Source: Dendrobates tinctorius (taxonomy: Eukaryota). Taken from it: a stretch of 64,000 nt of DNA. Position numbers: made by a program. Shown here piece by piece: positions 19,682 through 22,600 of the stretch; the first letter of the stretch is position 1; each line of letters opens with the position of its first letter. Where the stretch lies: contig NW_027361924.1 of NCBI RefSeq assembly GCF_039654945.1, positions 6,820,001 through 6,884,000 of the forward strand. Reading direction: 5' to 3'.

Positions 19682-22600
19682 AGAATCCTTTGCCCTCCTC
19701 GCCCTCATTGTCTGCTATTACCAGATGTCGCACATTTTTGCCGCCTCTCGAACCTTCGTCCCCCGATCTTCAGTCCGGGGGGGCCTTCGGCCGTTTCATT
19801 ACTAGTGGCAGCTAAACCCGTCTCTTCTTGTAGATCCAGAAATTTTTGCCTTTTTGCTTTTAACTTTTTTTTTTTTTTTCTGCCTCCTACACTTATTTTT
19901 GCTGAATGCTTTTTAAAAGAAATCCTGGTTTTATTTATTGAGGTTTTATTGTGCTTTTCTTTTTTTTTTCTTCCTTTTATTACAAGATTGAGGTTCTGTT
20001 CTGCTGTGATTTAAGCTAAGAATTGAGGGGGCTTCATGCAGGATTTCCCAGGGAGGATTCTAGGGATGTGTGATGAGTCCCAAGTGAATCTCCACTTTTT
20101 ATTCTTGCCTTTTTAATGTTCGGCATTCTGTGCTGATTTTATTTTTTCATATCTTTTTATAGCAATTATTCGTTTTTCTTATCTAAAGCTCCAATTCCCT
20201 TACATGGACATATGAAGCGTGTGATTCCTGCAGACAACACTAGAGGGAGCTATGCTTTCGCACTGCAGTGGTGGCTGCAGGAGTAACACTTCATGTCACT
20301 TACGCCCATACAAGGGGAGTTGGAGCTTTGGATCCAGATGATCCACGGCGGCTGTAAAGGCACAGGTGCATCTCACAAAATTGGAATATCATTAAAAATT
20401 AATTTTTCAGTTCTTCAATACAAAAAGTGCCTCTCTTCTATTCTATAGTCATTACACACAGAGTGATCTGTCACGTGTTTATTTCTGTTAATGTTGATGA
20501 TTATGGCTTACAGCCAGTGAGAACCCAAAAGTCATTATCTCAGGAAATTAGAATACTTTATAACACCAGCTTGAAAAATGATTGTAAAATCTGAAATGTA
20601 TGATCAGTAAATGCACTCAGTACTTGGTCGGGCTCCTTTTACATCAATTACTGCATCAATGCGGCGTGGCATGGAGGCGATCAGCCTGTGGCACTGCTGA
20701 GGGGTTATGGAAGCCCAGGTTGCTTTGATAACAGCCTTCAGCTCGTCTGCATTGTTGGGTCTGGTGTCTCTCATCTTCCTCTTGACAATACTCCATAGAT
20801 TCTCTATGGGGTTAAGGTCAGGTGAGTTTGCTGCCAATCAAGCCCAGTGATACTGTTGTCTTTACACCAGGTATTGGTACTTTTGGCAGTGTGGACAGGG
20901 GCCAAGTCCTGGAGAAGGACATTCCCATCTCCATAAAGCTTGTCGGCAGTGGGAGGCATGAAAAGCTCTAAAATGTCCTGGTAGACGGCTGCGCTGACTT
21001 TGGTCTTGATAAAACACAGTGGACCTACACCAGCAGATGACATGGCTCCCCGAACCATCACTGATGGTGGAGACTTCACACTAGACCTCCAGCAGCTTGG
21101 ATTGTGGCCTCTCCACTCTTCCTCCAGAATCTGGGACCGCGATTTCCAAGGTCTAGTGTGAAGTCTCCACAACACAACAGTATCACTGGGCTTGATTGGC
21201 AGCAAACTCGCCTGACCTTAACCCCATAGAGAATCTATGGAGTATTGTCAAGAGGAAGATGAGAGACACCAGACCCCACAATGCAGACGAGCTGAAGGCT
21301 GCTATCAAAGCAACCTGGGCTTCCATAACCCCTCAGCAGTGCCACAGGCTGATCGCCTCCATGCCACGCCCCATTGATGGAGTAATTGATGCAGATGGAG
21401 CCGCGACCAAGTACTGAGGGCATTTACTGATCATACATTTCAGTAGGACAACACTTCAGATTTTACAATCATTTTTCAAGCTGTTGGTGTTATAAAGTAT
21501 TCTAATTTCCTGAGATAATGACTTTTGGGTTTTCATTGGCTGTAAGCCATAATCATCAACATTACCAGAAATAAACACGTGACATAGATCCCTCTGTGTG
21601 TAATGACTCTATAGAATAGAGGAGAGGCACTGTTTGTATTGAAGAACTGAAATAAATTCACTTTCTGATGATATTCTGACTTTGTGAGAAGCCGCTGTAC
21701 ATTATAGGAAATGGTGGATGCTCACTTTCAGGTAGATGTAGTTGCTCCCTGGAAACCTATGAAGGTGAACTTCTGGAAGGTCGCAGATGACATCAGTGAC
21801 ATCTTTGTTGGGCCCCCTTGGTGCTCTCTGGCTGCTGGCACACTACATTCCCCATCGTGTCCTGTATTCTGAGCAGGATGGGAGATGTAGTTTTGCCACA
21901 GGGTGGGTGGCGATGCTCAACTGTATTGGTCTCCAGCTTGTGGCTTTCCAGGTGCAGCAAGATTCCCATTCCCATCATGCACGCACAGCCTCTGGCATGA
22001 TGGGAACTGTAGTTCTGCATCAGCTGGCGAGGACTTTACCGGTCATGCTTTCATATCGGGGGTCTCGAGCTGGCGGGAGACTACAACTCCCAGCATGCCA
22101 GAGAGCCCGGAGTTGGAGATGAGTGATCGGGAACCTTGATTTGATTTCCCCTTAATGCATAAGTTTTCACACCGGTTGACAAAAGATCCCGATACCGACA
22201 CCCGTGTGCAGGATGTCAGGAAGAGCCCGCTCCGTCCGGTCCGTATACTCGGCTCCATCGCTTGCCCCCGTTTTATTGTTTCCGCTTTCCCTCTGGTCAG
22301 ACTACCCTGCGTTTTTGGATTTATTTTATTTTTATTTTTTTTGGGAGGGGTGGGAAGGGTATTGGGGGAGGGGCTTGTGAAGGGGGAGGGGCTTTTATGT
22401 TTTATAATTCAAAGTTTTGTCATTGGAAAATAGTGTGATATATGGGGGAGGGGTGGGGGGAGCGGGGGAGGGAGTTTTGTGCAATTAGCAATGCTACTGG
22501 CAAATAATAAAGCCTTCCTTGTTAATTATTTACCTGGCGCCTTCTTCATGGAATTAGAGGTCGTGTCCGCGTCTGGGAAAGCTGGGTGACCGCCAGTATG

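What the first reader, a model, noticed from the sequence alone, without database searches (positions are those of the whole stretch)
20363..21697. Fold-back Tc1 derivative would put a ~500-bp dsRNA hairpin in the GLYR1 3' UTR
Seen: two inverted copies of a Tc1 right end (TIR plus transposase C-terminus) separated by ~315 bp, between the GLYR1 stop (18765) and the probable poly(A) signal (22506). Established: long 3' UTR inverted repeats are ADAR, Staufen and Dicer substrates. Inference: a broadly expressed mRNA could supply endo-siRNAs against this Tc1 family, or be edited or retained in the nucleus. An AATAAA inside the right arm (~21570) could shorten the hairpin.
Basis: partly seen in the sequence, partly recalled or inferred. 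Interest (0 to 1): 0.65.

Follow-up and report, generated by a model that had tools for sequence, protein, structure and literature searches.

The report
Fold-back Tc1 remnant downstream of GLYR1
Two head-to-head copies of the right end of a dead Tc1-type transposon lie 1.6 kb after the stop codon of a frog-like GLYR1 gene and would fold into a roughly 495-base-pair RNA hairpin if transcribed, a familiar kind of transposon debris whose presence in the mature mRNA is still unproven.

Summary
Arms 20363-20862 (500 nt) and 21171-21697 (527 nt) are 95% identical in inverted orientation, with a 308-nt spacer. As RNA they form a 495-pair stem (MFE -986 kcal/mol, z = -57 against shuffles). Both arms carry the C-terminus of a Tc1-like DDE transposase plus about 280 bp of right end with outer and inner direct repeats. 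The upstream gene is GLYR1/N-PAC: its last exon matches the end of PDB 2uyy at 24 of 24 residues, and the stop is at 18763-18765. The window looks anuran, not human.

Outside the element, the + strand has none of 12 poly(A) hexamer types between the stop and AATAAA 22506, so the element probably lies in transcribed 3' sequence. However, the element brings its own ATTAAA at 20391, 29 nt into the left arm. Use of that site would end the mRNA before any hairpin forms. The two AATAAA in the right arm would still leave a stem of 391-463 bp.

No expression data could be consulted. siRNA production is least likely outside oocytes. This is an ordinary new member of a known kind.

The parts
18691..18765 (+). 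Last coding exon of GLYR1/N-PAC with stop codon TAG at 18763-18765
   Evidence: 24 of 24 residues identical to the C-terminal residues 293-316 of PDB 2uyy_A 'N-PAC protein', ending at the last residue of the chain. An AG acceptor precedes 18691.
18766..20362 (+). Proximal 3' flank (putative 3' UTR), T-rich and A-poor, with no poly(A) hexamer
   Evidence: None of the 12 hexamer variants on the + strand here or in 21700-22505. The - strand of the same 2,403 nt has 31. Shuffles average 2.6, and 6.2% of them have 0.
20363..20862 (-). Left arm: Tc1-like right end plus transposase C-terminus, antisense to GLYR1
   Evidence: The ORF 20604-20837 (-) matches Pfam DDE_3 at E 1.3e-6.
20370..20397 (-). 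Outer direct repeat (putative transposase-binding site) of the left arm
   Evidence: 22 of 28 positions match the inner repeat at 20537-20563 in a local alignment. This is an IR/DR-type layout.
20537..20563 (-). Inner direct repeat of the left arm
20391..20396 (+). ATTAAA, the first poly(A)-type hexamer after the GLYR1 stop, 29 nt into the left arm
   Evidence: The 40 nt downstream are 42% T. Using this site would prevent hairpin formation.
20863..21148 (-). Continuation of the left copy into the DDE core of the transposase; most of the hairpin loop
   Evidence: The open frame 20804-21217 (-) matches DDE_3 at E 0.004, below the cutoff. 946 of 1010 candidate proteins matched at E<=0.001, the best named ones being frog and fish Tc1 transposases.
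21067..21088 (.). Left half of a perfect 22-nt inverted repeat at the fold-back centre
   Evidence: Pair I12, 100% complementary, 60 nt between the arms. Confirmed by blastn.
21149..21170 (+). Right half of the 22-nt repeat and start of the right copy, followed by a 204-nt internal deletion relative to the left copy
   Evidence: The segment 20863-21066 has no counterpart in the right copy.
21171..21697 (+). Right arm: transposase C-terminus (stop TGA at 21415-21417) plus right end, sense to GLYR1
   Evidence: The ORF 21196-21417 (+) matches DDE_3 at E 9.2e-7.
21570..21575 (+). AATAAA inside the right arm, fully base-paired in the predicted hairpin
   Evidence: Cleavage about 20 nt downstream still leaves 391 stem pairs.
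21651..21656 (+). Second AATAAA inside the right arm
   Evidence: Cleavage after it leaves 463 stem pairs.
21698..21699 (.). TA dinucleotide flanking the right terminus; the left flank at 20361-20362 reads CA
   Evidence: Read directly. This is consistent with a TA target-site duplication carrying one substitution, but not proven.
22506..22511 (+). AATAAA, the first poly(A) hexamer outside the element after the stop codon and the candidate authentic GLYR1 poly(A) signal

Best explanation
This is a dead, non-autonomous fold-back remnant of a Tc1-like DD34E-type IR/DR transposon. It consists of two right ends joined head to head.

The left copy is on the minus strand, 786 nt (20363-21148), and runs from the terminus into the DDE core. 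The right copy is on the plus strand, 549 nt (21149-21697). It starts with 22 nt that are a perfect reverse complement of 21067-21088, then skips 204 nt. That centre looks like a snap-back or template-switch event during repair or replication of a single element, rather than two independent insertions (inferred).

The element sits in the stretch that RNA polymerase II must cross after the GLYR1 stop codon before it meets the first non-transposon poly(A) signal at 22506. It is therefore probably part of the GLYR1 primary transcript (inferred, not shown). Transcripts that read past the element's own ATTAAA at 20391 will fold co-transcriptionally into a stem of about 495 bp. That stem also buries the two AATAAA of the right arm.

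By analogy with experimental long hairpins in vertebrate 3' UTRs, the RNA would most likely be tolerated, with partial A-to-I editing and/or removal by SOS splicing, and with little siRNA output outside the female germline. Nothing indicates a selected function. It is best read as a neutral or mildly deleterious passenger.
For: Shown here:
- Inverted-repeat geometry and identity.
- Stem of 495 pairs, MFE -986 kcal/mol, z = -57.
- DDE_3 matches on 3 of 3 fragments.
- Closest named proteins are Tc1 transposases of frogs: Phyllobates 76%, Ranitomeya 71-73%, bullfrog 64%. Teleost matches are about 60-73%.
- Outer and inner direct repeats match at 22 of 28 positions.
- The perfect 22-nt central palindrome and the 204-nt deletion.
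- GLYR1 identity from exons searched singly against PDB 2uyy: 54/60, 40/42 and 24/24 residues identical, plus NAD_binding_2 and NAD_binding_11 on exon ORFs.
- No poly(A) hexamer of 12 types outside the element between the stop and 22506, against 26 in the next 2,403 nt and 18 per 2,403 nt in an intron.
- The right-arm AATAAA at 21570 is fully paired in the fold.

From papers:
- A ubiquitously expressed mouse mRNA with a long 3'-UTR hairpin was tolerated, poorly processed to siRNA in somatic tissue, gave RNAi in oocytes, and had a small fraction edited (PMC3245926, abstract and passages).
- Base-paired transposon repeats trigger AKAP17A/CAAP1/RTCB-dependent excision from mRNAs, including from a 3' UTR, in C. 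elegans and in HEK293T reporter cells (PMC12779559, Main parts 1-3 and Discussion).
Against: - No transcript, 3'-end, editing or small-RNA data could be consulted, so inclusion in the mRNA is unproven.
- The hexamer depletion is largely explained by the A-poor composition of the + strand: shuffle mean 2.6, and 6.2% of 2000 shuffles also have zero.
- ATTAAA at 20391 has a T-rich downstream context and could be the site actually used.
- The left flank is CA, not TA.
- The DD34E spacing can only be read across a frameshift.
- No other copy of this family is present in the 64-kb window, so a consensus, the true terminus and the copy number of the fold-back are unknown.
- 9 of the 25 arm mismatches lie in the outermost 38 nt (Fisher p = 2.8e-5). 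A simple duplication model does not explain this. Arm-to-arm gene conversion that spares the edges is only a guess.
- The mouse and nematode data may not transfer to a frog.
Confidence: 0.6

Rival explanations
1. The GLYR1 mRNA ends at the transposon's own ATTAAA (20391), or at an unrecognised site upstream. The mature mRNA then carries at most about 50 nt of the left arm and no hairpin, and the element acts as a 3'-end donor that shortened the UTR.
For: ATTAAA at 20391 is the first of the 12 hexamer types after the stop codon. It is followed by a T-rich stretch, 42% T in the 40 nt scored, and a TGTA lies within 60 nt upstream. At this point in transcription the right arm does not yet exist, so nothing can mask the site. 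Alternative polyadenylation is reported as a major determinant of whether 3'-UTR inverted Alu pairs are included in human mRNAs (preprint 10.1101/2023.11.30.569399, abstract only).
Against: ATTAAA is generally the weaker signal (recalled, not tested here). No poly(A) site predictor was available. The AATAAA at 22506 exists after 2.4 kb of hexamer-free non-element sequence, as expected if it is the ancestral site.
Confidence: 0.3
2. The hairpin is an hpRNA-type endo-siRNA source. Dicer processes it, mainly in oocytes, into siRNAs that silence active members of this Tc1 family.
For: The stem has uninterrupted helices of 103, 80 and 68 bp. The left arm is antisense to the transposase C-terminus. 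A long 3'-UTR hairpin gave robust RNAi in mouse oocytes (PMC3245926, abstract). Endogenous siRNAs and transposon-derived small RNAs have been described in Xenopus (PMC3875865, passages).
Against: Somatic vertebrate cells process such hairpins poorly (PMC3245926 abstract; PMC6391682 abstract). The efficient oocyte Dicer isoform is described for mouse only (PMC8069103, abstract start from a search listing). No intact or even second copy of this family is in the window, so a target is not shown. The Xenopus siteRNAs described are intronic and mostly antisense single-strand clusters, and that text mentions neither Tc1 nor inverted repeats (0 occurrences of each).
Confidence: 0.12
3. The hairpin is transcribed but removed from most mature mRNAs by SOS splicing. 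This would leave a shortened 3' UTR with heterogeneous, non-GU-AG junctions near 20363 and 21697.
For: In PMC12779559 (Main parts 1-3, Discussion), base-pairing of inverted repeats was necessary and sufficient for excision. A Tc1 in a 3' UTR and an endogenous 3' UTR with Tc5A-derived inverted repeats were excised. The factors and the reaction are conserved in human cells. The present stem is far longer than the 54-nt Tc1 repeats used there.
Against: The authors state that no endogenous vertebrate target is yet known and that the repeat characteristics required are undetermined. Nothing has been tested in amphibians. Whether a 495-bp stem with a 308-nt loop is a substrate is unknown. That paper's supplements, which may hold length requirements, could not be read.
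Confidence: 0.2
4. The structure arose from two separate insertions of the same family, head to head, each later truncated. It would not be a single fold-back event or a single transposed fold-back element.
For: The arms differ by 5% with six indel blocks. The outermost 38 nt are much more diverged, holding 9 of the 25 mismatches.
Against: No host DNA lies between the copies. The junction is a perfect 22-nt palindrome with a 60-nt loop inside transposase coding sequence, which is the signature of a snap-back rather than of TA-targeted insertion. Neither copy has a left end.
Confidence: 0.08
5. The palindrome is an assembly or sequencing artefact, for example a chimeric fold-back read.
For: Long-read chimeras can create inverted duplications (general knowledge, recalled).
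Against: The arms are only 95% identical and differ by a 16-nt indel. They stop exactly at transposon termini rather than running into flanking host DNA. The centre is asymmetric: the left copy has 286 extra nt.
Confidence: 0.02

Closest known systems
Inverted Alu pairs (IRAlus) in human 3' UTRs
   Same: Two inverted copies of a transposable element in the 3' part of a gene form intramolecular dsRNA. Reported fates are A-to-I editing, nuclear retention, Staufen binding and translational effects (PMC526178, PMC4378195, PMC3458544 and PMC11263572, seen as search listings and abstract starts only). Inclusion is governed by poly(A) site choice (preprint 10.1101/2023.11.30.569399, abstract).
   Different: Here the repeat is a DNA transposon, not a SINE. 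The arms are about 500 nt at 95% identity, with perfect helices up to 103 bp, so the duplex is longer and more perfect than typical Alu pairs (recalled). The host is a frog-like genome, and no RNA evidence exists.
MosIR transgene: engineered long hairpin in the 3' UTR of a ubiquitously expressed mouse mRNA (PMC3245926)
   Same: Same architecture: a long inverted repeat downstream of a coding sequence in a broadly expressed mRNA. It gives the best available expectation: tolerated, poorly diced in somatic tissue, RNAi in oocytes, a small fraction edited (abstract and passages).
   Different: That construct is artificial, with perfect arms, a strong promoter, and a mouse host. The present locus is natural, 5% diverged, and of unknown expression.
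SOS-splicing substrates: Tc1, Tc3, Tc4 and Tc5A-derived repeats in C. elegans mRNAs, and Tc1 or HSMAR2 reporters in human cells (PMC12779559)
   Same: Tc1/mariner-type inverted repeats inside an mRNA, including in 3' UTRs, recognised through base-pairing of the repeats.
   Different: Those substrates have short terminal repeats (54 nt for Tc1) separated by the element body. Here nearly the whole element is stem. Excision was not and could not be tested.
Made1 MITEs and the hsa-mir-548 family (PMC1784062, abstract start from a search listing)
   Same: A Tc1/mariner-superfamily derivative reduced to two inverted ends that fold into a hairpin RNA.
   Different: Made1 is a short, high-copy palindromic MITE that yields miRNA-size hairpins. 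This element is 1,335 nt, keeps coding remnants, and appears once in the window.
Internally deleted or rearranged non-autonomous Tc1/mariner derivatives made by abortive gap repair or template switching (PMC3814204, abstract start from a search listing); fold-back inversions via ssDNA hairpins (PMC7467729, abstract start from a search listing)
   Same: A 204-nt internal deletion and a snap-back junction (22-nt perfect palindrome, 60-nt loop) inside the element.
   Different: The usual products keep one left and one right end. This one has two right ends.

Membership tests
Tc1/mariner superfamily, Tc1-like (DD34E) transposon | DDE-type transposase of the Tc1 clade | tested here: met
   Pfam DDE_3 matched 3 of 3 fragments: 28.7 and 29.3 bits against a cutoff of 28.6, and 17.4 bits, below the cutoff. 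946 of 1010 candidates matched at E<=0.001, and the named ones are Tc1 or Tc1-like transposases.
Tc1/mariner superfamily, Tc1-like (DD34E) transposon | 34 residues between the second D and the E of the catalytic triad | tested here: inconclusive
   Counting on the left copy gives 34 only if one residue is assumed at the frameshift between ORFs 20804-21217 and 20604-20837. The right copy lacks the second D.
Tc1/mariner superfamily, Tc1-like (DD34E) transposon | TA target-site duplication at both termini | tested here: inconclusive
   The right flank is TA (21698-21699). The left flank is CA (20361-20362).
Tc1/mariner superfamily, Tc1-like (DD34E) transposon | A left end and an N-terminal paired-like HTH DNA-binding domain (complete autonomous element) | tested here: not met
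   Both termini are right ends. No HTH-coding part is present, since the left copy stops at 21148 inside the DDE domain. The element is a remnant, not an autonomous member.
IR/DR subgroup of Tc1-like elements (Sleeping Beauty type) | Two transposase-binding direct repeats, outer and inner, within each long terminal repeat | tested here: met
   The outer repeat 20370-20397 and the inner repeat 20537-20563 match at 22 of 28 positions, about 167 nt apart. Binding itself was not tested. The IR/DR concept is taken from PMC5224488 (abstract start from a search listing).
3'-UTR inverted-repeat dsRNA (ADAR, Staufen or paraspeckle substrates) | Two inverted repeat copies close together on one strand that can form a long intramolecular duplex | tested here: met
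   495-pair stem, z = -57.
3'-UTR inverted-repeat dsRNA (ADAR, Staufen or paraspeckle substrates) | Both copies present in the mature mRNA upstream of the poly(A) site actually used | not testable with these tools
   Only indirect evidence: no poly(A) hexamer outside the element before 22506, against ATTAAA at 20391.
3'-UTR inverted-repeat dsRNA (ADAR, Staufen or paraspeckle substrates) | Clustered A-to-G mismatches in RNA against the genome | not testable with these tools
   No RNA-seq was available. 133 paired A in the left arm and 151 in the right arm are potential sites.
hpRNA / endo-siRNA locus | 21-23-nt small RNAs from both arms, Dicer-dependent | not testable with these tools
   No small-RNA data. 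An Rfam search of 18000-26000 found nothing on the element, only sub-threshold miRNA-like hits on a different short hairpin.
SOS-splicing substrate | AKAP17A-dependent, non-GU-AG excision near base-paired transposon repeats in an exon or UTR | not testable with these tools
   The structural prerequisite, base-pairing repeats, is met. Excision needs cDNA data.
MITE or fold-back repeat family | Multiple dispersed copies sharing the same internal junction | tested here: inconclusive
   There is 1 copy in the 64-kb window. None of the 120 listed protein hits covers the junction-specific N-terminus of ORF 20807-21217; the maximum coverage is 88% at 50% identity and the best identity is 73%. No genome of the source species could be searched.

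The most novel reading that the evidence does not exclude
The fold-back is a natural vertebrate substrate of a dsRNA-handling pathway with real consequences for GLYR1. One possibility is that it is the first endogenous vertebrate target of SOS splicing, excised from the 3' UTR. The other is that it is a germline hpRNA whose siRNAs police this Tc1 family. In either case the ATTAAA at the hairpin's entrance would act as a host-favoured escape valve, setting how much dsRNA a broadly expressed gene produces.
Probability: 0.12. Interest if true: 0.6.

Novelty: new member of a known kind. Interest (0 to 1): 0.3.

Why it matters
If GLYR1 transcripts do include both arms, this locus is a natural, near-perfect hairpin of about 495 bp in a housekeeping-type vertebrate mRNA. 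That makes it the endogenous counterpart of the engineered MosIR hairpin.

It could show how a frog routes long self dsRNA among ADAR editing, Dicer, innate sensors and the recently described SOS splicing, for which no endogenous vertebrate target has been reported (PMC12779559, Discussion).

It would also illustrate how a transposon can both create a dsRNA hazard and supply the poly(A) signal that avoids it. If the mRNA ends at 20391 or earlier, the finding is simply a rearranged transposon remnant.

Tried and rejected
1. Looked for further copies of the family to define a consensus, true termini and copy number. blastn of the left copy against the window found only itself, the right arm and the 22-nt palindrome.

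2. Searched the junction-spanning ORF against the protein collection. None of the 120 listed hits (243 at E<=0.001) carries the junction. This is weak evidence, because this ORF from the window was itself not listed.

3. Tested poly(A) hexamer depletion as evidence for a real UTR. The count is zero, but composition explains most of that (6.2% of shuffles also reach zero), so it is kept only as weak support.

4. Ran Rfam on 18000-26000 at E<=1. Nothing fell on the element. The 12 weak hits are all below gathering scores and lie on other short hairpins.

5. Scanned three further ORFs in the rest of the window for a downstream host gene that would bound the 3' end. None matched Pfam; the only hits were two ORFs of a retrotransposon. 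The region holds a second Tc1 family, a retrotransposon and satellites.

6. Tried to decide which arm keeps the ancestral outer terminus by comparing with the inner repeat. The result was ambiguous and was dropped.

7. Did not date the fold-back, because no substitution rate for the source species is known.

8. Considered an assembly artefact and rejected it (see rival explanations).

Left undone:
- No eukaryotic genome or transcriptome collection was available.
The prokaryotic genome collection was not used, being irrelevant.
- Paper supplements were closed.
- Exons of GLYR1 were searched one by one.
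Full report
**What is there**

In 19500-22800 the repeat finder returned 12 inverted pairs. Seven of them (I1-I5, I7, I10) are collinear segments of one large inverted repeat. A global alignment of 20363-20862 (500 nt) with the reverse complement of 21171-21697 (527 nt) gives 475 identical positions, 25 mismatches and 27 gap columns, including one 16-nt indel. The spacer is 308 nt.

Folded as RNA, 20340-21720 forms a single long stem with MFE -986.3 kcal/mol. The stem has 495 pairs, 10 of them G-U, in 26 helices. The longest uninterrupted helices are 103, 80 and 68 bp. 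Twenty dinucleotide-preserving shuffles average -399.6 +/- 10.2 kcal/mol (z = -57), and two neighbouring segments of equal length give -398 and -491.

The 5% divergence, the indels and the fact that the arms end exactly at transposon termini rule out a palindromic assembly artefact for practical purposes.

**Identity of the arms**

The right arm on the + strand and the left arm on the - strand each encode a 73-77-residue open frame containing the [11 protein letters not shown] motif region. Both match the end of Pfam DDE_3, at E 9.2e-7 and 1.3e-6, just above the gathering score. The left copy continues for another 286 nt, to 21148, into the DDE core. That piece matches DDE_3 at E 0.004, below the cutoff.

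A search with 94 residues of that core found 946 of 1010 candidates at E<=0.001. The best named hits are:
- dendrobatid frogs: Phyllobates terribilis 76%, Ranitomeya imitator 71-73%
- a stickleback Tc1-like protein: 73%
- the bullfrog 'Tc1 transposase': 64%
- many teleosts: about 60-65%

Each arm carries about 280 nt between the transposase stop and the terminus. Within it, an outer repeat (20370-20397) and an inner repeat (20537-20563) match at 22 of 28 positions. This is the IR/DR layout of Sleeping-Beauty-type elements.

The right terminus abuts TA. The left abuts CA.

**The centre**

21149-21170 is a perfect reverse complement of 21067-21088 (pair I12). Read on the + strand it encodes the same RSSVKSP segment that the left copy encodes on the - strand. 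It is followed directly by the start of the right arm, so the right copy lacks the 204 nt that correspond to 20863-21066.

The whole is therefore two right ends joined head to head, through a snap-back with a 60-nt loop plus an internal deletion. I infer a single template-switch or fold-back event in one element. It may have happened elsewhere and been followed by transposition, since both ends keep outer and inner repeats. Two TA-targeted insertions seem less likely. This is inference. The window holds no other copy of the family, and no genome of the source species could be searched.

One feature remains unexplained. Nine of the 25 mismatches fall in the outermost 38 nt (Fisher p = 2.8e-5). 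Arm-to-arm gene conversion that spares the edges would fit, but it was not tested.

**The host gene**

Against PDB 2uyy ('N-PAC protein'):
- 16269-16448 matches at 54 of 60 residues
- 18041-18166 matches at 40 of 42
- 18691-18762 matches at 24 of 24, ending on the last residue of the chain

ORFs holding upstream exons match NAD_binding_2 and NAD_binding_11. Of 8 ORFs scanned in that call:
- 3 matched NAD_binding_2, one of them below the cutoff
- 2 matched NAD_binding_11, one of them below the cutoff
- the ORF holding the last exon matched nothing
- the lysine-rich ORF gave only a sub-threshold, probably spurious, NPR3 hit
- the eighth is a transposase (see "Elsewhere in the window")

The gene is GLYR1/N-PAC, and its stop codon is TAG at 18763-18765.

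The Tc1 relatives, the satellite-rich sequence and the differences from the PDB reference chain in the exons lead me to take the window as anuran, not human. The window contains no N.

**Is the element in the 3' UTR?**

This could not be tested directly. Indirectly, among 12 poly(A) hexamer types there are none on the + strand in the 2,403 nt of non-element sequence between the stop and AATAAA 22506. The - strand of the same sequence has 31. The next 2,403 nt downstream have 26, and an intron has 18 per 2,403 nt. The strand is A-poor, so shuffles expect only 2.6, and 6.2% of 2000 shuffles also have zero. The support is therefore weak but points the expected way.

All 10 hexamers found between the stop and 22506 lie inside the element. 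The first is ATTAAA at 20391, 29 nt into the left arm, with a T-rich downstream region. If it is used, no hairpin forms.

Cleavage after it would still leave 391 stem pairs, and cleavage after 21651 would leave 463. No downstream host gene was found in the window to bound the transcript.

**Likely behaviour of the RNA**

None of this was shown here. It is inferred from published systems.

A mouse transgene with a long hairpin in the 3' UTR of a ubiquitously expressed mRNA caused no defects and no interferon response. It was poorly processed to siRNAs in somatic cells, gave robust RNAi in oocytes, and had only a small fraction edited. Editing did not prevent export (PMC3245926, abstract and passages). 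Dicer's initial cleavage is the main constraint in mouse cells (PMC6391682, abstract).

Base-paired transposon repeats in mRNAs trigger SOS splicing. This includes a Tc1 in a 3' UTR and an endogenous 3' UTR with Tc5A-derived repeats. It depends on AKAP17A, CAAP1 and RTCB, works in C. elegans and in human reporter cells, and has no endogenous vertebrate target known yet (PMC12779559, Main parts 1-3 and Discussion).

Human 3'-UTR inverted Alus are edited, sometimes retained or translationally dampened, and their inclusion depends on poly(A) site choice (search listings; preprint 10.1101/2023.11.30.569399, abstract).

The transposon-derived small RNAs described in Xenopus embryos are intronic clusters. 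That paper's text mentions neither Tc1 nor inverted repeats.

I therefore rank the outcomes as follows:
- transcribed and tolerated, with some editing and/or excision: the best explanation, 0.6 overall for the statement as worded
- truncated at 20391 or earlier: 0.3
- SOS excision as the dominant fate: 0.2, which overlaps with the first
- a germline siRNA source: 0.12

**Comparison and novelty**

The locus works like a 3'-UTR inverted-repeat dsRNA element (IRAlu-type, or the MosIR model). It is built from a Tc1/mariner remnant, like Made1/mir-548 or other gap-repair derivatives, but is larger and has two right ends.

It is a remnant of a Tc1-like IR/DR element, not an autonomous member. There is no left end and no DNA-binding domain.

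Nothing here is outside known categories. It is a new member of a known kind, of modest interest (0.3). Its main value is as a candidate natural test case for dsRNA routing and SOS splicing in a vertebrate.

**Elsewhere in the window**

- A second, young Tc1 family of Sleeping-Beauty type lies at about 23634-25250, with terminal repeats that are nearly perfect over more than 130 nt. It has a 344-codon open frame whose ATG is one base out of frame. A broken copy lies at 43085-44175.
- A non-LTR retrotransposon with endonuclease and reverse-transcriptase domains lies at 28852-31350.
- Short hairpin-forming repeats flank the fold-back.
- Tandem-repeat arrays cover roughly half of the window.

Noticed in passing
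window 23634-25250 (+): A second, different Tc1 family of Sleeping-Beauty type (Pfam HTH_SB, HTH_Tnp_Tc3_2, DDE_3). Its terminal inverted repeats are 95-100% complementary over more than 130 nt, and it has a 344-codon open frame at 24003-25037. The ATG at 24006 is one base out of frame with it. It looks young and nearly intact.
   Followed up: partly
window 43085-44175 (-): Another copy of that second Tc1 family, split into two frames of 213 and 187 aa. This copy keeps the N-terminal Met.
   Followed up: no
window 19380-19600 and 21830-22100: Several copies of a short unit of about 30-40 nt are arranged as small hairpins on both sides of the fold-back, for example 19500-19540/19559-19599 at 88% complementary with an 18-nt loop. 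They also pair across it (19509-19537 with 21873-21901). Rfam gives only sub-threshold miRNA-like hits, for example mir-5429 at 41.8 bits against a gathering score of 80. This is probably a MITE or SINE-like repeat.
   Followed up: partly
window 28852-31350 (+): A non-LTR retrotransposon with long open frames: Exo_endo_phos (E 9e-6) and RVT_1 (E 2.2e-37).
   Followed up: partly
window 16584-17930: A 26-nt CT-rich tandem array of about 52 copies fills the intron between the GLYR1 exons at 16269-16448 and 18041-18166. Further arrays with 38-41-nt units lie in the preceding introns, at 14358-15112 and 15742-16234.
   Followed up: no
window 1-3034, 32680-39497, 45159-53856, 55399-64000: Large tandem-repeat or satellite arrays with periods of 33, 43, 29, 48, 36 and 66 nt and strong strand skews. 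Tandem arrays cover roughly half of the window.
   Followed up: no
window 20366-20400: The outermost 38 nt of the fold-back arms hold 9 of the 25 arm mismatches (Fisher p = 2.8e-5). The left-arm variants include the bases that create ATTAAA at 20391. Which arm is ancestral could not be decided.
   Followed up: partly
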